DNA of 64,000 nucleotides, taken from the NCBI GenBank assembly GCA_963817535.1, contig CAWFOW010000011.1:160398-224397 (forward strand), given 5' to 3'. The DNA comes from an uncultured Alphaproteobacteria bacterium. Its GTDB lineage: Bacteria > Pseudomonadota > Alphaproteobacteria > MPNO01 > DASWLB01. A program made the position numbers and the translations under genes. Each line of letters opens with the position of its first letter. Position 1 is the stretch's first letter. Of the stretch, positions 51,040-56,939 are shown piece by piece. The notes under the pieces were generated by a model, which searched no databases, was not told where the DNA came from, and worked only from the letters and a program-made list of their open reading frames with translations.

Positions 51040-51219
51040 TCGCCGGGTTCCGGGCGCGCCGCCGCCGGCAGGGCGATGTGGCGCGACCCGGCTCCGATCC
51101 GCTACTATCCGGCCGAATTCACGGGTTCCTAAGGGTTTCGGCCTGGGCGGCCCCGTCGTCTCCAAGTCCTGTAAGCGCGCCGCCCGGGCCGCGCCCCACC
51201 AAGGTGAGTTTTCCCGACG

Positions 51220-53409
51220 ATGCCCCACGATTCCCACGACCACCACCATCACGATCATGACCATCACCATCATCCGCGCGTTCGCTTCTCGGCCAGCGTC
51301 GATCACCTTGTGAACGAATACGGCGACAGCGCCCGCCTGACGGTCGCGCTGGGCGGCGAGGTGATGCACCGGGTGGGGCTGCACAGCGACGACGTGATCC
51401 GCATCGCCACCGAGCGCGGGCGCAGCCTGCTGGCGCGGGTCAACGGCGCGGTCGATGCCGAGACCGACCAGGGGCGCACGGTCGTCCGCATGGACCGGTT
51501 CATGCGCCAAGCGCTGAAGGCGCATCTGAACGAGGTGGTGGAGATCGAGCCGGCCGAGCTCGGCCCGGCGGCGAAGGTGGAGCTGATCCCGGCGATCGAC
51601 GTCTCGACCGCGCACGACCTGGTGCCGCATATCAAGTCCTACCTGGTCAAGAACCGCACGCCGCTCTCGATCGGCGCGGTGCTTTACGTCCCGTTCCCCG
51701 GCACCGAGGCGGGCACCACCTACGAGGTCGCGCATTTGCCCGACGGCGCGGGCTTCGCCGCCGAGGAGACCGAGGTCACGCTCGCCTATCACGACGCGCA
51801 CATTCCCGAGGGCGCGTTCGACGTGACGTTCGAGGATGTGGGCGGGCTGGGCCGCCAGGTGAAGCTGGTGCGCGAGCTGGTCCAGCTTCCGCTCAAGTTC
51901 CCGCACGTCTACCGCACGCTCGGCATCAACCCGCCGCGCGGCATCATCCTCTTCGGCCCGCCCGGCGCAGGAAAGACGCACCTCGCCCGCGCGGTCGCGA
52001 ACGAGGTGGAGGCGCGCTTCTACTACATCAACGGACCCGACATCATCGGCACCTATGCGGGCGAGACCGAAGGCAATCTGCGCCGCATCTTCGGCGAGGC
52101 ATCGCACCACGCGCCGTCGGTCGTGTTCATCGACGAGCTCGACGCGCTGGCGCCCAAGCGGGGCGAGACTGGTGCGCATGCCGACATCCGTGCCGTCACC
52201 CAGCTCCTCTCGCTGATGGACGGGCTGAAGCGCGTCGACTCGGTGATCGTCATCGCGACCTCGAACCGCGTCGACGCCGTCGATCCCGCCTTCCGGCGGC
52301 CCGGCCGGTTCGACCGCGAGATCTTCGTCGGCCCCCCGGACATCCCCGGGCGGCGCGAGATATTGGAGATCCATACGCGCGAGATGCCGCTGACCGATGC
52401 GGCGCAGGACTATCTCGACGAGGTGGCGCGGCGCACCCACGGCTTCGTCGGTGCCGACATGATGGAGCTCTGCCGCACGGCCGGCCTTAACGCGCTGCGC
52501 CGCTCGACCTTCGGGCTGCGCGACCATCTCGCGGCTTTCCGCGTCGACCTGCCGAGCCTGCGCGTCGACAAGGAGGATTTCGAGCTGGCGCTGGGCGAGG
52601 TTCACCCCTCGGCGATGCGCGAGACGCTGATCAGCGTGCCCGAGGTGAGCTGGCACGATGTCGGCGGGCTCGACGCGATCAAGGAGCGGCTGACCGACTT
52701 GGTGGAGCAGCCTTTGCGCCATGCGCAGGTCTTCGCCGAGGCTGGCCTCACGCCGCATACCGGCGTGCTGCTGCACGGCGCGCCGGGCAACGGCAAGACG
52801 CTGCTGGCGCAGGCGCTCGCCAATGAGTGCGGCATCAACTTCATCGCCGTCGAGGGGCCGGAGCTGTTCACCAAGTGGCTCGGCGAGTCGGAGGAGGCGG
52901 TCCGCCACGTCTTCCAGATCGCCCGCCAGGTGGCGCCGACGATCATCTTCTTCGACCAGCTCGACGCGATCGCACCGTTCCGCGGCGCACACGAGGGCTC
53001 CATGACCACTGAGCGCGTGGTGAACCAGCTCCTCGCCGAACTCGACGGGCTCGAGCAGCTCTCTCGCGTCATCGTGATCGGCGCGACCAACCGCAAGGAC
53101 CTGGTGGACCCGTCGATCCTGCGGCCCGGCCGGCTCGGCGTGCATGTCGAGGTGCCGCCGCCGGATGAGACGTCGCGGCGCGACATCCTGCGCCTCCATC
53201 TCGGCGGCGGCAGCGCGCCCCAGGGCAAGGATTTCGACGCGATCGTCGAGGCGCTCGCCGGCCAGACCGACGGCTATTCCGGCGCCGAGCTGCGCCAGCT
53301 CTGCGAGGAGACCAAGCGGCGGGCGCTCCGCGGCGTCGGCTTTGCCCGCGCGGCCGCGCCCACGCTCGCCGATGCTTTGGCGGCGCTCAAGACCGAGTCG
53401 CGTGAGTAG
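51220..53409 (+). CDS. Cdc48/p97/VAT-like double-AAA+ ATPase with His-rich N-terminal tail
   Basis: Tail MPHDSHDHHHHDHDHHHH followed by a Cdc48-N-like region. First ATPase domain (D1): Walker A GPPGAGKT, Walker B VVFIDELD, RRPGRFDRE. Second ATPase domain (D2): GAPGNGKT, IIFFDQLD, RPGRLGVH. Aromatic pore loops GTYAGETE and TKWLGESE. Confidence 0.9.
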   Translation: MPHDSHDHHHHDHDHHHHPRVRFSASVDHLVNEYGDSARLTVALGGEVMHRVGLHSDDVIRIATERGRSLLARVNGAVDAETDQGRTVVRMDRFMRQALKAHLNEVVEIEPAELGPAAKVELIPAIDVSTAHDLVPHIKSYLVKNRTPLSIGAVLYVPFPGTEAGTTYEVAHLPDGAGFAAEETEVTLAYHDAHIPEGAFDVTFEDVGGLGRQVKLVRELVQLPLKFPHVYRTLGINPPRGIILFGPPGAGKTHLARAVANEVEARFYYINGPDIIGTYAGETEGNLRRIFGEASHHAPSVVFIDELDALAPKRGETGAHADIRAVTQLLSLMDGLKRVDSVIVIATSNRVDAVDPAFRRPGRFDREIFVGPPDIPGRREILEIHTREMPLTDAAQDYLDEVARRTHGFVGADMMELCRTAGLNALRRSTFGLRDHLAAFRVDLPSLRVDKEDFELALGEVHPSAMRETLISVPEVSWHDVGGLDAIKERLTDLVEQPLRHAQVFAEAGLTPHTGVLLHGAPGNGKTLLAQALANECGINFIAVEGPELFTKWLGESEEAVRHVFQIARQVAPTIIFFDQLDAIAPFRGAHEGSMTTERVVNQLLAELDGLEQLSRVIVIGATNRKDLVDPSILRPGRLGVHVEVPPPDETSRRDILRLHLGGGSAPQGKDFDAIVEALAGQTDGYSGAELRQLCEETKRRALRGVGFARAAAPTLADALAALKTESRE

Positions 53410-53424
53410 CTGTCGCGGGCCCGG

Positions 53425-53847
53425 CTACCGCCGGTAGGGGAAGCAGCGCTCGCGGTCGAGGGTCAGGTGGAAGTGGCTGGCCAGCACCTCGATCGCCGGC
53501 CGGTATTCCCGATAGGGGTCGGCGTTGGCCTCGCCGACGATGATGATGCGGAAGCCGGGATCGTCGCGCCCACCCGGCGGCAGCATCGCGGTGACCAGCG
53601 CGGTGCCGTCCCGGTCGCGCAGCGTGAGGAACAGCGGCATGGTCTGCTGGACGTGGCGCTCGAGCCCGATATTCTGCTCGATGAAGACGGACGAGGCCGG
53701 CCGGTAGCCTGCGACCGCGGCCTCGCGCTCGCGGCGGAAATGCTTGCCGACCGCGTGGTTCATCAGGGCCGATTCCTGCTCGGCCTCCGGCAGGGACTCG
53801 ATGCGGAACCAGGTCCGCTTTTCGGGCGCGTCGCAGACGTACTTCAT
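53425..53847 (-). CDS. Hypothetical protein (140 aa; no motif recognised)
   Basis: A clean ORF with an ATG start and coding-like composition (MKYVCDAPEKRTWFRIESLPEAEQESALMNH...). It is convergent with the AAA+ gene (15-nt gap) and divergent from the acyl-CoA ligase gene. Confidence 0.55.
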   Translation of the reverse strand: MKYVCDAPEKRTWFRIESLPEAEQESALMNHAVGKHFRREREAAVAGYRPASSVFIEQNIGLERHVQQTMPLFLTLRDRDGTALVTAMLPPGGRDDPGFRIIIVGEANADPYREYRPAIEVLASHFHLTLDRERCFPYRR

Positions 53848-53996
53848 GGCGATTTCCCCACTCGTCCGGTCGCCCCACCATCATACACAAGCCGGGGAGT
53901 CGTTTGAACCGGCGAAGGGCGGAGCGCGCTGTCTCGTCGCGCTTTATGGTTTTCGTAAGGGGGATGGGCTATCGTCCCGCGTCGTGCCCATGGCGC

Positions 53997-54019
53997 CTGC
54001 CGACATGATCTGCCGACAT
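53997..54019 (+). repeat. Direct repeat CTGCCGACAT x2 (13-nt period) just upstream of the acyl-CoA ligase start
   Basis: CTGCCGACAT occurs at 53997-54006 and 54010-54019, ending 14 nt before GTG 54034. Confidence 0.3.
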
Positions 54020-54033
54020 TTTCGGGGCCTCGC

Positions 54034-55629
54034 GTGAGCCTGATCCTGCCCGATCTGATGGCGCGAAGCGCGGCGCGCTCGCCGGGCGCGGAAGCGCTGA
54101 AGCATCGTGACAGCGCGCTTTCCTATGGGGCGCTGTGGGCGGCGGTCGAGGGGGCAGCACGGCGCCTCGTCGCGCTCGGGCTCGCCCGCGGTGAGCGTGT
54201 CGCGGTCTATCTCGACAAGCGTCCCGAGGCGGTCGTCGCCATGTTCGGCGCAGCGGCGGCGGGCGGCGCCTTCGTGCCGGTGGCGCCTGTGCTGCGCCCC
54301 GCCCAGGTCGCGCACATCCTCAAGGACTGCAATGTCCGCGTGCTGGTCACCTCGACAACGCGGCTCGAGACGCTGGCCGGCGTGCTCCCCGACTGTGCCG
54401 ACCTGCGCCAGGTGATCGTCGTCGACGGCGACGGGGCGGGCCTTCTGCCGCCCGCGGTCACCGGGCTCGCGTGGGATGAAGCGCTCGGTAATGCGGCCGA
54501 ACCCGGCGCGTCGCCGCATCGCGTGATCGACCAGGACATGGCGGCGATCTTCTACACCTCGGGCTCGACCGGCCTTCCCAAGGGGGTCGTGCTGTCGCAC
54601 CGCAACTTGGTGGCCGGCGCGCAGTCGGTCAGCGCCTACCTCGAGAACGTGGCGGCGGACCGCATCCTGTCTGTCCTGCCGCTCAATTTCGACGCGGGGT
54701 TCAGCCAGCTCACCACCGCCTTCCATGTCGGCGCCGCGGTCGTGCTGCTCGATTACAGCTTCCCGCGCGACGTGGCCCGCCTCGCGGCGCGCGAGCGCAT
54801 CACAGGCATCGCCGGCGTGCCGCCCTTGTGGAGCCAGCTTGCTGATGTGGACTGGCCGGGCGCGGCGGTGGAGTCGCTCCGCTACTTCACCACGACGGGC
54901 GATCGCATGCCCCGGCCCACCCTCGACCGGCTGCGGGCCAAATTTCCCAACGCCAAGCCGTACCTCATGTACGGGCTCACCGAATCGTTCCGCTCCACCT
55001 ATCTGCCGCCGTCGGAGATCGACCGGCGGCCGGACTCGATCGGCAAGGCGGTGCCCAATGCCGAGATCCTCGTGGTCCGCCCGGACGGCACGCTCTGCGG
55101 CCCGGACGAGCCGGGCGAGCTGGTCCATCGCGGCGCGTTCGTGGCGCTCGGCTACTGGAACGATCCCGAACGCACCGCCGAGCGGTTCCGCCCAGCGCCG
55201 GCCCGCCCCGGCGAACTGCCCATCGCCGAGATGGCGGTGTGGTCGGGCGACACGGTGCGAATGGACGCGGACGGGTTCCTCTATTTCCTGGGCCGCGGCG
55301 ACGCGATGCTCAAGACCTCGGGCTACCGGGTCAGCCCGACCGAGATCGAGCAGGTCGTCCTGGCCTCGGCGGCGGCGGGCGAGGCGGTGGTCGTCGGCGT
55401 GCCGCACGCCACGCTCGGGCAGGCCGTCGTCGTGGTGGCGACGCCGCGCGAAGGCGCCACCGTCGACCAGGATGCGATCCTCGATCATTGCCGGCGCGAG
55501 CTTCCGGCCTACATGGTGCCGCGCGCCGTGGTCGTGCGCGACGTTATCCCGCGCAACGCCAACGGCAAGATCGACCGCAAGGCGCTGGCCGAGGAGCTGG
55601 CCGACCTGTTCGCGGGCGAGGCGGGCTGA
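54034..55629 (+). CDS. Acyl-CoA ligase (AMP-forming), resembling the exosortase-A-system-associated subfamily
   Basis: GTG start. Adenylate-forming motifs are present (…IFYTSGSTGLPKGV…, …TGD…, …NGKIDRKAL…). The N-terminal block ERVAVYLDKRPEAVVAMFGAAAAGGAFVPVAPVLRPAQVAHILKDCNVRVLVTS matches my recollection of the XrtA-associated ligase family. Confidence 0.8.
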   Translation: MSLILPDLMARSAARSPGAEALKHRDSALSYGALWAAVEGAARRLVALGLARGERVAVYLDKRPEAVVAMFGAAAAGGAFVPVAPVLRPAQVAHILKDCNVRVLVTSTTRLETLAGVLPDCADLRQVIVVDGDGAGLLPPAVTGLAWDEALGNAAEPGASPHRVIDQDMAAIFYTSGSTGLPKGVVLSHRNLVAGAQSVSAYLENVAADRILSVLPLNFDAGFSQLTTAFHVGAAVVLLDYSFPRDVARLAARERITGIAGVPPLWSQLADVDWPGAAVESLRYFTTTGDRMPRPTLDRLRAKFPNAKPYLMYGLTESFRSTYLPPSEIDRRPDSIGKAVPNAEILVVRPDGTLCGPDEPGELVHRGAFVALGYWNDPERTAERFRPAPARPGELPIAEMAVWSGDTVRMDADGFLYFLGRGDAMLKTSGYRVSPTEIEQVVLASAAAGEAVVVGVPHATLGQAVVVVATPREGATVDQDAILDHCRRELPAYMVPRAVVVRDVIPRNANGKIDRKALAEELADLFAGEAG

Positions 55630-55632
55630 CGG

Positions 55633-56724
55633 CTATGGCAATCTGTGCAATCGCGCGGTCACGGACGCGACGAGCTGGCGCGCCGCCAGCACGAGGCCGT
55701 TAAGGGTGAACAGGTTGAATGCCTCGATCCCGACGCGCTGGCGCAACTCGGCCATCCAGTCCCGCTTGTAGTCCTCGCTGCCGATCCCGTAATCGATCTC
55801 CGCCACGCGATCTTCGTCGAGCACTTGGCGCATCATCTCGCGGGTCAGGATCGAGCCGGGAGAGAACGCCTTGAACCGCTCGTCATAGGCCAGCTTGTAG
55901 ATGGCCGCCGTTTGCCCCGACACCAGCCAAAGCTGGGCCGCGGCCGGGGCCCCGTCGACATAAAGGAGACCGAGCTGCAGCGACCCGAGCCGACCTGCGA
56001 TCCGGCAAAGCTCGCGAATGAAGCCGGGCGCGGTTTCCGGGTCCTTCCAGCTTTGTCCGTAGACGGCCGCGTAGTCGTCGAGCTGCGTCTCGGTGACCTC
56101 GGTCGCGACCACGATCTCGACCGTATGGCCTTCGCGCAGCTTCCGCTCGCGCCGCCGGATGGTGTTCCGCACCTGCGAGGCGCGGGAAGCATAATAGGCC
56201 TCGAATCCGATACCGGCGGTCGCGATGAACTGGTTCTCGTACTGAAAGAAGCGATGGGCGCGGAACCCGCCTCGCGACAGGCCGCGCTCGATCCATCCCG
56301 TCGCCGCGTTGTCCGAATCGAGAAGCCGCAACTCCACCTTGCGCCAGCGCGGCCGTTCCGCCCGGATGAACGCCAGGATCGCCGCAAGGGGTGCCTCCCC
56401 CCCGGCCGAGTCCGGCGCGAAGACCGGCCCGTAGGCCACCGAGTAAACGCTGGTCAGGCTGTAAAGCCGACGCCTGCCCGAATCGGCCGCGCAGTAGAGG
56501 ACGCAGAACGATTCGGGAGCAGCCCCCTCGGCGACGTAGATTCGTGGCTCCAGGGCAGCTGGCAAGCCGTGTGTGGCCAGCCCCTCGAACCATTCGAGGG
56601 CGCGGAACAGGTCGTGCTGGGCACCATAGCGAAGGGATGCCCCATGGGCGTCCGCGAGGGCGGAAAGCGAGCCGTAGACCCGCACGGCGGCCGGCATTTG
56701 ACGGGATGGATCGGTGGCCCCCAT
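55633..56724 (-). CDS. GNAT-family N-acetyltransferase (CelD/BcsL-like, Acetyltransf_6)
   Basis: 363 aa. Pattern …YYASRASQVRNTIRRRERKL…, …LLYVDGAPAAAQLWLV…AIYKLAYDERFKAFSPGSIL…. Its stop lies 3 nt from the convergent ligase stop. Confidence 0.7.
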   Translation of the reverse strand: MGATDPSRQMPAAVRVYGSLSALADAHGASLRYGAQHDLFRALEWFEGLATHGLPAALEPRIYVAEGAAPESFCVLYCAADSGRRRLYSLTSVYSVAYGPVFAPDSAGGEAPLAAILAFIRAERPRWRKVELRLLDSDNAATGWIERGLSRGGFRAHRFFQYENQFIATAGIGFEAYYASRASQVRNTIRRRERKLREGHTVEIVVATEVTETQLDDYAAVYGQSWKDPETAPGFIRELCRIAGRLGSLQLGLLYVDGAPAAAQLWLVSGQTAAIYKLAYDERFKAFSPGSILTREMMRQVLDEDRVAEIDYGIGSEDYKRDWMAELRQRVGIEAFNLFTLNGLVLAARQLVASVTARLHRLP

Positions 56725-56939
56725 CGGCCCCCTCGGCGGCGTTCGCGCCCCGGGCGGGCGCGCCCGGCGAGTGTTAACACGGCCCGCGCGGGCGAGGCCA
56801 GCACAGGCGCCGAGCGTGATTTTCCCGCAATTGGCCGGGTACCGTGTCTTTTGACATTCGGGAAACCAGGCCGTAAGAATTCGGTGGTTTCATTCCGCCA
56901 CGTATCTTGCGCGAAACTTGCAAGCTGGGAGGACGACCC

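What the first reader, a model, noticed from the sequence alone, without database searches (positions are those of the whole stretch)
51220..53847. Cdc48/p97-like double-ring AAA+ unfoldase with an 11-His N-terminal tail, paired with an unrecognisable 140-aa protein
Seen in the sequence:
- A 729-aa protein with a Cdc48-N-like region and two complete AAA+ modules.
- Both modules have aromatic pore loops (GTYAGETE and TKWLGESE), as in translocating unfoldases.
- The protein ends ...KTESRE, so it has no HbYX-type tail.
- Its first 18 residues are MPHDSHDHHHHDHDHHHH (nt 51220-51273): 11 His and 4 Asp.
- A 140-aa ORF with no motif I can name lies convergent, 15 nt from its stop.

Established knowledge: Cdc48/VAT/p97 is an archaeal and eukaryotic segregase. 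The bacterial homologues that have been studied are mainly actinobacterial, and proteobacterial ones are essentially uncharacterised. His/Asp-rich tails of this type bind Ni, Zn or Co in HypB, UreE and CobW-like proteins.

Inference: this is a metal-binding or metal-regulated unfoldase with an unknown partner or substrate.
Basis: partly seen in the sequence, partly recalled or inferred. Interest (0 to 1): 0.65.

Follow-up and report, generated by a model that had tools for sequence, protein, structure and literature searches.

The report
His-tailed Cdc48-like ATPase, cupin-linked clade
This is a real bacterial relative of the Cdc48/p97 protein-unfolding machine with a conserved histidine-rich head; in other genomes it sits beside a pair of small cupin (dioxygenase-like) genes rather than the 140-aa gene next to it here, so it may be an ATP-driven helper for a metal enzyme.

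Summary
Every sequence observation holds. There is a 729-aa N-D1-D2 Cdc48-like ATPase with Tyr and Trp pore loops, no HbYX tail and 11 His in its first 18 residues. A convergent 140-aa ORF lies 15 nt beyond its stop.

The His-rich tail and the start codon are conserved: 114 of 120 homologues have at least 4 His.

The pairing with the 140-aa gene is coincidental:
- None of 80 loci that hold a 140-aa homologue has such an ATPase within 10 kb.
- Same-genus genomes separate the two genes or lack the ATPase.
- The 93%-identical relative has another gene between them.

The conserved neighbours of this ATPase clade are two small monocupins. Together they look like a split gentisate-1,2-dioxygenase: cupA keeps the metal site and cupB is degenerate. 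They flank the ATPase, often with overlapping codons, in 20 of 25 informative loci, inside aromatic-acid catabolic clusters. In this genome the cupins lie more than 120 kb away.

The clade also carries a conserved Walker-B Glu-to-Gln in D2 (120 of 120).

Best reading: a D1-driven remodeller, possibly a metal-loading helper, for the cupin enzyme. The cupin link is inferred from comparative genomics; the mechanism is speculative. It is an uncharacterised variant of a known family.

The parts
51201..51208 (+). Shine-Dalgarno-like AAGGTGAG, 11 nt before the ATG
   Evidence: Read from the sequence. DNA homology with the 93% orthologue locus L102 begins at 51197, so only the ribosome-binding site and the gene are shared.
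51220..53409 (+). Gene for the 729-aa Cdc48-like N-D1-D2 AAA+ ATPase
   Evidence: Ka/Ks is 0.095 against L102.
51220..51273 (+). His/Asp-rich N-terminal tail MPHDSHDHHHHDHDHHHH (11 His); predicted disordered
   Evidence: pLDDT is below 50 for residues 1-18. The tail is conserved in the subclade: median 7 His, range 0-12, n=120. It is absent from the ~55%-identity subclade.
51286..51789 (+). Cdc48-type N-domain (residues ~23-190). It starts with the conserved strand [FH]-x-A-[ST]-V-[DE]-H-L.
   Evidence: CDC48_N hit at residues 36-113. Beta-rich fold in the model. Full-length Foldseek alignment to p97. Conserved motif seen.
51829..52599 (+). D1 AAA+ module (residues ~204-460), canonical: Walker A GPPGAGKT (51955-51978), pore loop GTYAGETE (52048-52071), Walker B VVFIDELD (52120-52143), sensor Asn, RRPGRFDRE
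   Evidence: motifs conserved in 120 of 120 homologues.
52651..53334 (+). D2 AAA+ module (residues ~478-705): Walker A GAPGNGKT (52777-52800), pore loop TKWLGESE (52870-52893), Walker B IIFFDQLD with Gln in place of the catalytic Glu (52942-52965)
   Evidence: D-Q in 120 of 120 homologues. D-Q also in the ~55% subclade, but D-E in the unrelated CDC48 clade at L082.
53425..53847 (-). 140-aa conserved orphan gene. It is a neighbour only and not part of the ATPase system.
   Evidence: A sigma-70-like promoter of its own lies at 53908-53880.

Best explanation
The gene encodes a member of a distinct, sporadically distributed proteobacterial clade of Cdc48/VAT-like AAA+ ATPases.

What the sequence shows:
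- The architecture is N-domain, D1, D2.
- D1 has every catalytic motif and a Tyr pore loop.
- D2 keeps nucleotide binding, arginine fingers and a Trp-Leu pore loop, but has Gln in place of the Walker-B catalytic Glu throughout the clade.
- There is no HbYX tail, and the genome has no 20S proteasome.

Inferred architecture: a hexamer in which an ATP-locked D2 ring serves as scaffold and D1 is the only motor. This is the reverse of p97 and of actinobacterial Cpa.

Inferred client: across the clade the conserved, often translationally coupled neighbours are two small monocupins. Together they resemble a split gentisate/salicylate 1,2-dioxygenase. cupA keeps the HxH...H metal site; cupB has lost it. 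They sit within hydroxybenzoate/aromatic-acid catabolic clusters with Amidohydro_2 decarboxylase-like, LigB, Rieske and UbiD genes. I therefore infer that the ATPase is a dedicated remodeller of this cupin enzyme.

Most likely action (speculative): it grips a cupin subunit through the N-domain and D1 pore and partly unfolds it or exchanges subunits, so that the buried metal site can be loaded or reset.

Role of the tail (speculative): the disordered His/Asp tail would put six copies, about 66 His, on a hexamer above the pore. It is a later add-on of one subclade and plausibly acts as a local reservoir or relay for divalent metal.

In this genome the ATPase gene has been separated from its cupins. 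They lie 122-130 kb upstream and about 506-513 kb downstream on the same contig, so the ATPase would act in trans. The 140-aa neighbour is unrelated.
For: Family and architecture.

D1 canonical and D2 D-Q: 120 of 120 homologues. D-Q is also in the ~55% subclade and absent from another CDC48 clade.

Tail conservation.

Cupin linkage:
- cupB-ATPase-cupA in L085, L086, L088, L104, L105 and L109.
- ATPase-cupB-cupA in L110.
- cupA-cupB-ATPase in L090, L092, L094, L095, L096 and L098.
- cupA(-cupA)-ATPase in L083, L102 and L103.
- Partial views in L087, L091 and L100; degraded cupins in L084.
- That makes 20 of 25 informative loci (L090 and L092 look like near-duplicate contigs).
- L111 has a full bicupin 72 nt upstream instead.
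- Gene overlaps of 8 nt occur in L085, L104 and L109.

Cupins resemble a split gentisate dioxygenase (GDO): cupA matches the GDO/salicylate dioxygenase catalytic cupin and cupB matches the second GDO cupin. The cupA metal motif H-x-H-Q-G-G...E-H-x-H is conserved and is lost in cupB.

Phyletic profile:
- The ATPase and close cupB are both present in G000 and G002.
- Neither the ATPase nor a close cupB is present in G003, G006 or G010. G001 has only a diverged cupB (51%) and no ATPase.
- Both are absent from the other 400 sampled class genomes.

No proteasome partner: a single PF00227 hit of HslV size and no HbYX.

His-rich stretches elsewhere in this genome are all on metal-handling proteins.

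The gene is under purifying selection.
Against: - In this window the ATPase has no cupin within 64 kb. Three other loci (L089, L093, L112) also lack adjacent small cupins.
- The link rests on gene neighbourhood in metagenome contigs and MAGs. No member of the clade has been studied, and three literature searches found nothing.
- The ~55% subclade keeps the cupins without any His tail, and a few tailed-clade members have 0-1 His. The tail therefore cannot be essential for the cupin function.
- The genome has several cupA/cupB copies for one ATPase, and a diverged cupin pair exists in a same-genus genome without the ATPase.
- Neither metal binding nor the ATPase behaviour of the D-Q ring was measured.
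Confidence: 0.45

Rival explanations
1. One reading: a metal-binding unfoldase whose partner or substrate is the adjacent 140-aa protein.
For: The two genes are convergent and 15 nt apart. The closest relative, L102, also has both genes within 1.3 kb.
Against: - None of 80 genome loci with a 140-aa homologue has the ATPase within 10 kb.
- In same-genus G002 the two genes are on different contigs. G001 and G003 have the 140-aa gene but no ATPase.
- In L102 a binding-protein gene lies between them. DNA homology shows that the 15-nt spacing comes from a local deletion or rearrangement.
- Convergent genes cannot be co-transcribed, and the 140-aa gene has its own promoter-like site.
- The commonest neighbour of the 140-aa gene is a ~385-aa membrane protein.
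Confidence: 0.03
2. A general-purpose protein segregase or quality-control unfoldase acquired by horizontal transfer. It would have no dedicated client. The cupin adjacency would reflect hitch-hiking within mobile catabolic islands, and the His tail would be an incidental or metal-stress-sensing low-complexity segment.
For: - Distribution is patchy: 1 of 3 other same-genus genomes searched (G001-G003), none of a further 12 genomes of the same family and order searched for it, and none of 400 in the class.
- Non-actinobacterial bacterial Cdc48 homologues are described as sporadic and archaeal-like (PMC6017811).
- In this genome the gene functions away from any cupin yet remains under purifying selection.
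Against: - Cupin adjacency persists from 93% down to ~54% ATPase identity, across three different gene orders and with overlapping start and stop codons. That is unlikely for hitch-hiking.
- The surrounding catabolic genes vary while the cupins stay.
Confidence: 0.22
3. The cupins are cofactors or adaptors of the ATPase rather than clients. For example, they could be small-molecule- or metal-sensing subunits that dock on the N-domain, like UBX or Npl4-type cofactors, and direct the unfoldase to other substrates.
For: - Cdc48-family N-domains typically bind adaptor proteins (established knowledge).
- cupB has lost the metal site and could be purely structural.
- cupA has a strikingly conserved extreme N-terminus, MAE-x-ERTR-x-RERE.
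Against: - cupA keeps the full GDO-type metal and substrate motif.
- In L111 a normal-length bicupin dioxygenase-like gene replaces the split pair.
- The neighbours are pathway enzymes for hydroxybenzoates.
Confidence: 0.12
4. An unfoldase that feeds a compartmental protease, either proteasome-like or HslV/ClpP-like, as archaeal Cdc48/VAT and Cpa do.
For: The closest solved relatives, VAT and p97, thread substrates. Cpa binds the 20S proteasome without HbYX (PMC6017811).
Against: - None of 120 homologues has HbYX.
- The genome has a single proteasome-family hit of HslV size and no 20S.
- No protease gene recurs in the neighbourhoods.
Confidence: 0.05

Closest known systems
Archaeal Cdc48/VAT and eukaryotic p97/Cdc48 (TIGR01243 CDC48 family)
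   Same: - The N-D1-D2 architecture is the same.
- Identity is about 40% over more than 700 aligned positions.
- There is an aromatic D1 pore loop as in VAT, and a Trp pore loop in D2.
- It presumably works as a hexameric threading motor.
   Different: - It scores below the curated CDC48 cut-off: 695.9 against 802.65 bits.
- The D2 Walker-B Glu is replaced by Gln throughout the clade, so D1 is the presumed motor. In p97, D2 is the main motor.
- It has no HbYX tail.
- It has an extra His/Asp tail.
- Its conserved partners are cupins, not ubiquitin-type adaptors or a proteasome.
Cpa, the Cdc48-like protein of actinobacteria (PMC6017811)
   Same: It is a bacterial Cdc48 relative without a classical HbYX motif. 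It forms hexameric rings; this was shown for Cpa and is assumed here.
   Different: - Cpa has a strictly conserved D2 and a degenerate D1. Here D1 is canonical and D2 carries D-Q.
- Cpa is actinobacterial, vertically inherited and binds the 20S proteasome.
- This clade is proteobacterial, sporadic, and sits in a genome without a 20S proteasome.
NSF (D1 active, D2 a nucleotide-binding oligomerisation ring)
   Same: The division of labour inferred here is the same: an N-domain for client or adaptor binding, D1 as motor, and D2 as a non-hydrolysing scaffold. This comparison is from my own knowledge.
   Different: NSF remodels SNARE complexes through SNAP adaptors. No such partners are present here, and D2 in this clade keeps a canonical pore loop.
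AAA+ enzyme activases and metal-centre maturases: Rubisco activase CbbX/Rca, and the MoxR-type CoxD, NorQ and CbbQ
   Same: The concept is the same: an AAA+ motor encoded next to a specific (metallo)enzyme remodels it so that an active site can be freed or loaded. This comparison is from my own knowledge.
   Different: - CbbX and Rca are single-ring, and the MoxR-type members belong to a different AAA+ clade.
- None of them has a Cdc48 N-domain or a His tail.
- The functional analogy here is inferred, not shown.
His-rich metallochaperone tails (HypB, UreE, CooJ, SlyD, COG0523 GTPases)
   Same: The composition is similar: alternating His/Asp runs at a terminus. The same kind of stretch occurs on this genome's CobW GTPase, its CDF transporter and a nitrile hydratase alpha chain.
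   Different: There is no homology to any of these chaperone domains. The tail is fused to an unfoldase, and metal binding was not tested.

Membership tests
Cdc48/p97/VAT family (TIGR01243) | Cdc48-type N-domain (double-psi barrel plus beta-clam) preceding the ATPase rings | tested here: met
   The Pfam CDC48_N hit at residues 36-113 is sub-threshold (30.6 against 35.1 bits). However, phmmer aligns from residue 42 to p97 residue 39, and the AF2 model aligns to full-length p97 over 716-740 columns.
Cdc48/p97/VAT family (TIGR01243) | Two tandem classic-clade AAA modules, each with an AAA_lid_3 | tested here: met
   PF00004 twice (272 bits) and PF17862 twice.
Cdc48/p97/VAT family (TIGR01243) | Score above the curated family cut-off | tested here: not met
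   695.9 bits against a cut-off of 802.65. Public records of homologues are named only 'AAA family ATPase'.
Cdc48/p97/VAT family (TIGR01243) | Catalytic Walker-B Glu in both rings | tested here: not met
   D1 reads DELD. D2 reads DQLD in the window and in 120 of 120 homologues.
Cdc48/p97/VAT family (TIGR01243) | Aromatic pore-1 loops compatible with threading | tested here: met
   GTY[AT]GETE in D1 and KWLGE[ST]E in D2, both conserved.
Archaeal Cdc48/VAT as proteasome activator | C-terminal HbYX motif and a 20S proteasome in the genome | tested here: not met
   None of 120 homologues has an HbYX-like end. The genome has one PF00227 hit of HslV size and no 20S pair.
Cpa (actinobacterial Cdc48-like protein) | Strictly conserved D2 with a degenerate D1 that lacks the sensor Asn and Arg finger; actinobacterial lineage | tested here: not met
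   Here D1 has the sensor Asn (TSNR) and RRPGRFDRE, while D2 is the altered ring. Relatives are alpha- and betaproteobacterial MAGs. Cpa features are taken from PMC6017811.
Any hexameric AAA+ unfoldase | Hexamer formation, ATP hydrolysis and substrate threading | not testable with these tools
   Only a monomer model could be made.
His-rich metallochaperones (works-like claim only) | Binds Ni, Co, Zn or Fe through the His-rich segment | not testable with these tools
   Only composition and conservation were shown. The analogy is with other His-rich proteins of the genome.
Dedicated AAA+ enzyme activase/maturase (works-like claim only) | Conserved genetic linkage to the client enzyme | tested here: inconclusive
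   The feature is met across the clade: 20 of 25 informative loci have adjacent small cupins and one more has a bicupin. It is not met in this window, where the nearest cupins are more than 120 kb away.
IetAS anti-phage system | Single-AAA IetA (~370 aa) paired with the IetS protease | tested here: not met
   PADLOC and NCBIfam IetA hits cover only one AAA module and fall well below cut-off (217.6 against 510 bits). The architecture differs and no IetS-like neighbour is present.

The most novel reading that the evidence does not exclude
This clade could be the first Cdc48-type (classic-clade, double-ring) AAA+ machine dedicated to a small-molecule enzyme rather than to proteolysis or segregation. 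It would be an ATP-driven activase or metallochaperone that opens a split gentisate-dioxygenase-like cupin heteromer to insert, exchange or re-reduce its active-site metal. The His/Asp tail would serve as the metal relay, and a permanently ATP-locked D2 ring (natural Walker-B Gln) would serve as scaffold.
Probability: 0.3. Interest if true: 0.8.

Novelty: new variant of a known kind. Interest (0 to 1): 0.55.

Why it matters
Bacterial Cdc48 homologues outside the Actinobacteria are treated as sporadic archaeal imports of unknown role (PMC6017811). This work defines one such clade by three conserved traits:
- a natural D2 Walker-B Gln;
- a His/Asp N-tail in one subclade;
- tight linkage to a split-cupin, dioxygenase-like pair in aromatic-acid catabolic clusters.

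That gives the clade a concrete, testable client. If the client is confirmed, the known tasks of Cdc48-type unfoldases would extend to enzyme maturation or repair. It would also point to an ATP-dependent step in the assembly or metal loading of non-heme cupin dioxygenases, which matters for lignin-derived aromatic degradation in soil bacteria.

The work also removes a false lead: the 140-aa 'partner'.

Tried and rejected
- **The 140-aa protein as partner.** Rejected on linkage.
- **Identity of the 140-aa protein.** Pfam, NCBIfam, PADLOC and PDB sequence searches gave nothing. A confident AF2 model (pLDDT 82.8) has no PDB fold match: best E 0.017, TM below 0.4. Its function remains unknown.
- **Proteasome coupling.** Rejected: no HbYX and no 20S proteasome.
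- **Anti-phage IetA or TRIP13.** These are domain-level AAA similarities only.
- **The MetE-like (Meth_synt_2) gene upstream as conserved partner.** Meth_synt_2 genes recur near some homologues (L084, L103). They are distant paralogues: 26% identity or no hit. The link is not supported.
- **Named or cultured carriers.** The plasmid collection holds no orthologue; the best hits, at 42-45% identity, belong to other CDC48 clades. Cluster members are all MAGs from Stellaceae, Xanthobacteraceae and a Betaproteobacteria bin.
- **Literature.** Three searches on Cdc48 with cupin, with Proteobacteria, and on AAA with cupin dioxygenase clusters found nothing relevant. One search failed on syntax.
- **Metagenome scan with the ATPase.** It returned only 16 loci, because one search pattern was the His run itself.
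- **Sigma-70 promoter scan.** It found no promoter for the ATPase gene. This is not informative for this organism.
Full report
**1. The observation**

ORF 51220-53409 (+) encodes a 729-aa protein.
- Pfam finds two AAA domains with two AAA_lid_3 domains. It also finds a CDC48_N hit just under the gathering score, 30.6 against 35.1 bits.
- NCBIfam's CDC48 model aligns residues 35-706 at 695.9 bits, below its 802.65 cut-off.
- phmmer against the PDB puts archaeal VAT (E 1.7e-171) and p97 (residues 42-704 to 39-700, E ~1e-166) on top.
- An AlphaFold model (mean pLDDT 76.8) has a disordered segment at residues 1-18, a beta-rich N-domain at about 23-190, and two AAA modules.
- The model aligns to p97/Cdc48 chains over 716-740 columns at about 40% identity, E 6e-70.

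The remaining details all check out.
- The pore loops GTYAGETE and TKWLGESE are present.
- The C-terminus reads KTESRE.
- The first 18 residues read MPHDSHDHHHHDHDHHHH.
- The convergent 140-aa ORF at 53425-53847 lies 15 nt from the stop.
- The tail is the most His-rich 18-residue window of any ORF of at least 100 aa in the 4.5-Mb genome.
- It is written in mixed CAC/CAT and GAC/GAT codons, so it is not a slippage-prone repeat.

**2. Is the tail real and conserved?**

It is. Among the 120 best database clusters (66-93% identity) the proteins start M/V-P-H-[DE] or M-[DN]-[DE]. They then carry a His-rich run that ends in a conserved strand, H-[VF]-H-A-[ST]-V-[DE]-H-L.
- Before that strand the median length is 22.5 residues and the median His count is 7, with a range of 0-12.
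- 114 of 120 have at least 4 His. The window's protein, with 11, is near the top.
- The closest relatives vary the pattern but keep the length: MPHDSPDHHHHHHHDHHHP and MPHDSHDHDHDHHHHDHHHP.
- The next in-frame Met (residue 49) would remove conserved N-domain sequence.
- DNA homology with the 93% orthologue starts 23 nt upstream of the ATG, at the Shine-Dalgarno-like AAGGTGAG.
- Ka/Ks against that orthologue is 0.095.

A caveat is that a more distant subclade (~54-56% identity: L090, L092, L094, L096, L098) has no His tail at all. The tail is a subclade add-on.

**3. The 140-aa 'partner'**

The 140-aa protein belongs to a very conserved alphaproteobacterial orphan family.
- About 2000 database proteins score E <= 0.001; the best 120 are 64-83% identical to it.
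- A 36-sequence alignment has 42 invariant columns, including Cys5, His31, His65 and Cys135.

It is not linked to the ATPase.
- In 80 loci from species-representative genomes that hold a homologue, tblastn finds no Cdc48-like gene within 10 kb on either side.
- Within the genus, G002 has the two genes on different contigs. G001 and G003 have the 140-aa gene but no ATPase.
- In the closest relative (L102; ATPase 93% identical) a solute-binding-protein gene lies between them.
- A DNA comparison shows three separate homology blocks: ATPase, 140-aa gene and polysaccharide-export gene. The 15-nt spacing in the window is therefore the product of local rearrangement.
- The commonest neighbour of the 140-aa gene is a ~385-aa membrane protein upstream on the same strand, in 31 loci.
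- The gene has its own promoter-like site.

A confident AF2 model (pLDDT 82.8) has no PDB fold match. The protein remains unidentified, and it is a separate matter from the ATPase.

**4. What does travel with the ATPase?**

Neighbourhoods of homologues were gathered from long contigs and from a metagenome scan. They were then searched by tblastn. Two small cupins recur.
- **cupA** is about 170-177 aa and has an N-terminus MAE-x-ERTR-x-RERE. It has Pfam Cupin_2. It matches the catalytic cupin of gentisate/salicylate 1,2-dioxygenases (PDB 3bu7, 3nst, 2phd; TIGR02272 positions 97-167). It keeps H-x-H-Q-G-G...E-H-x-H.
- **cupB** is about 160-172 aa. It matches the second cupin of the same enzymes (TIGR02272 positions 230-303) and has lost the H-x-H.

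Together they look like a gentisate-dioxygenase-type bicupin split into two genes. The gene orders seen are:
- cupB-ATPase-cupA in L085, L086, L088, L104, L105 and L109, with 8-nt gene overlaps in L085, L104 and L109;
- ATPase-cupB-cupA in L110;
- cupA-cupB-ATPase in L090, L092, L094, L095, L096 and L098;
- cupA(-cupA)-ATPase in L083, L102 and L103;
- partial views in L087, L091 and L100;
- frameshifted remnants in L084.

That is 20 of 25 informative loci (L090 and L092 look like near-duplicate contigs). L111 instead has an ordinary 351-aa bicupin 72 nt upstream.

The exceptions are L089, L093, L112 (a bicupin 2.4 kb away) and the window itself.

The surrounding genes vary but share a theme. 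They include Amidohydro_2 (JGI names some '6-methylsalicylate decarboxylase'), LigB, Rieske/LigXa, UbiD, FAD hydroxylases, GFO/IDH/MocA and transporters. This points to hydroxybenzoate or lignin-derived aromatic catabolism.

The phyletic profiles agree.
- The ATPase and a close cupB are both present in G000 and G002.
- Neither the ATPase nor a close cupB is present in G003, G006 or G010. G001 has only a diverged cupB (51%) and no ATPase.
- Both are absent from the other 400 sampled genomes of the class.

In the window's genome, cupA and cupB copies sit on the same contig: 122-130 kb upstream of the ATPase (C11:81054 and 88658) and about 506-513 kb downstream of it (C11:719731, 720313 and 725975). 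They lie beside the same kinds of genes as in other genomes. A diverged pair lies on C1.

Compare G002/L083 (cupA-ATPase-GFO-cupA-SBP) with G000 at C11:719731-721945 (cupA-cupA-SBP). The comparison suggests that the ATPase was excised from its cupin cluster in this lineage.

**5. Motor anatomy**

In all 120 homologues D1 is canonical: GPPGxGK[TS], [FM]IDE[LF]D, T[TS]NR and RR[PA]GRFDRE. D2 reads F[FI]DQL[DE], with Gln in place of the catalytic Glu. It retains Walker A, the sensor Asn, both arginines and a K-W-L-G pore loop.
- The tail-less ~55% subclade also has D-Q.
- An unrelated alphaproteobacterial CDC48 clade (L082) has D-E in both rings.

D-Q therefore marks the cupin-linked clade. An earlier first-reader note had spotted D-Q in this gene. 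Here it is verified and shown to be clade-wide.

By analogy with engineered E-to-Q variants (established knowledge), D2 should bind ATP but hardly hydrolyse it. It would act as a stable scaffold, leaving D1 with its Tyr loop as the motor. This is the reverse of Cpa, where D2 is conserved and D1 degenerate (PMC6017811). It is also the reverse of p97.

None of the 120 homologues has HbYX. The genome has a single proteasome-family hit of HslV size.

**6. Mechanism**

Shown by the evidence:
- membership of the family, and the motifs;
- tail conservation;
- lack of linkage to the 140-aa gene;
- linkage to cupins across the clade.

Inferred:
- a hexamer with an ATP-locked D2 ring and a D1 motor;
- the cupin pair as client.

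Speculative:
- The ATPase partly unfolds cupin subunits or exchanges them, to allow loading or resetting of the buried metal.
- The tail concentrates metal above the pore, with six copies carrying about 66 His.

In this genome the other most His-rich stretches sit on three metal-handling proteins:
- a CDF transporter;
- a CobW GTPase;
- a nitrile hydratase alpha chain, whose N-tail MPHDGHDHDHGHDHDHGHNHPHDP closely resembles the ATPase tail.

This is support by analogy only.

The tail cannot be essential, because the tail-less subclade keeps the cupins.

An earlier AI note describes a His-tailed EutA-like ATPase partnered with cupins in another genome. It is a parallel and not independent evidence.

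**7. Comparison and novelty**

The protein works like a Cdc48/VAT-type threading ATPase, but it fails two membership criteria: the curated score and a catalytic D2. It lacks the proteasome-docking features, and it is not Cpa.
- No orthologue is present in the plasmid collection; the best hits, at 42-45% identity, are other CDC48 clades.
- All carriers seen are uncultured MAGs.
- Literature searches found nothing on the clade.

I class it as a new variant of a known kind.

Confidence in each claim:
- Cdc48-like ATPase with a conserved His tail: about 0.95.
- The 140-aa gene is unrelated: about 0.95.
- The cupin pair is the functional partner: about 0.6.
- Metal loading or reactivation is the mechanism: about 0.3.

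Noticed in passing
window 53425-53847 (-): The 140-aa protein is a highly conserved orphan. About 2000 database proteins score E <= 0.001, the best 120 at 64-83% identity, and 42 alignment columns are invariant, including Cys5, Trp13, His31, His65 and Cys135-x-Pro-Tyr. A confident AF2 model (pLDDT 82.8) has no PDB fold match. Its commonest neighbour is a ~385-aa membrane protein upstream on the same strand (31 loci). The conserved Cys and His residues hint at a metal or redox site.
   Followed up: partly
own genome, contig C3 ~140990-141646 (outside the window): A nitrile hydratase alpha chain (PF02979, 273 bits, VCTLCSC motif) carries the N-terminal tail MPHDGHDHDHGHDHDHGHNHPHDP. This is nearly the same style as the ATPase tail, so the same kind of His/Asp head sits on a known metalloenzyme subunit in this organism.
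   Followed up: partly
own genome C11:81054-81557, 88658-89176, 719731-720783, 725963-726484; C1:50553-51565: Multiple cupA and cupB copies are dispersed in the genome next to SBP/ABC transporter, LigB-like and Amidohydro_2 genes. The cupA-cupA-SBP arrangement at about 719.7-721.9 kb looks like the G002/L083 cluster with the ATPase-GFO segment removed.
   Followed up: partly
L111:3874-4929: In one homologue locus a normal 351-aa bicupin (Cupin_2) sits 72 nt upstream of the ATPase in place of the split cupA/cupB pair. This fits the idea that the small cupins are a split bicupin dioxygenase.
   Followed up: no
L084:6703-7916: The cupA and cupB genes beside a 74%-identical ATPase are frameshifted or truncated while the ATPase is intact. 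This is a second case, besides the window, of the ATPase outliving its adjacent cupins.
   Followed up: no
cupA N-termini in L083-L110 and the own genome: The extreme N-terminus of cupA, M-A-[ED]-x-x-R-T-[RK]-x-R-E-[RQK]-E, is conserved across both ATPase subclades. That is unusual for an enzyme terminus and could be a recognition handle for the ATPase.
   Followed up: no
window 53913-56846 against L102:7656-7688: Relative to the closest relative, the window has an acyl-CoA ligase and a FemAB/CelD-like GNAT gene inserted between the 140-aa gene and the polysaccharide-export gene. It lacks the SBP gene between the ATPase and the 140-aa gene. The region is a rearrangement hotspot.
   Followed up: partly
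protein cluster of P0024: A 90%-identity cluster mixes 728-aa ATPases with 315-aa Amidohydro_2 proteins named '6-methylsalicylate decarboxylase'. This is probably bridged by a fused or read-through gene call, implying direct adjacency of these genes in some contigs.
   Followed up: no
L112:7214-8692: A SelO (protein adenylyltransferase) gene directly follows the ATPase in one locus that lacks adjacent small cupins.
   Followed up: no
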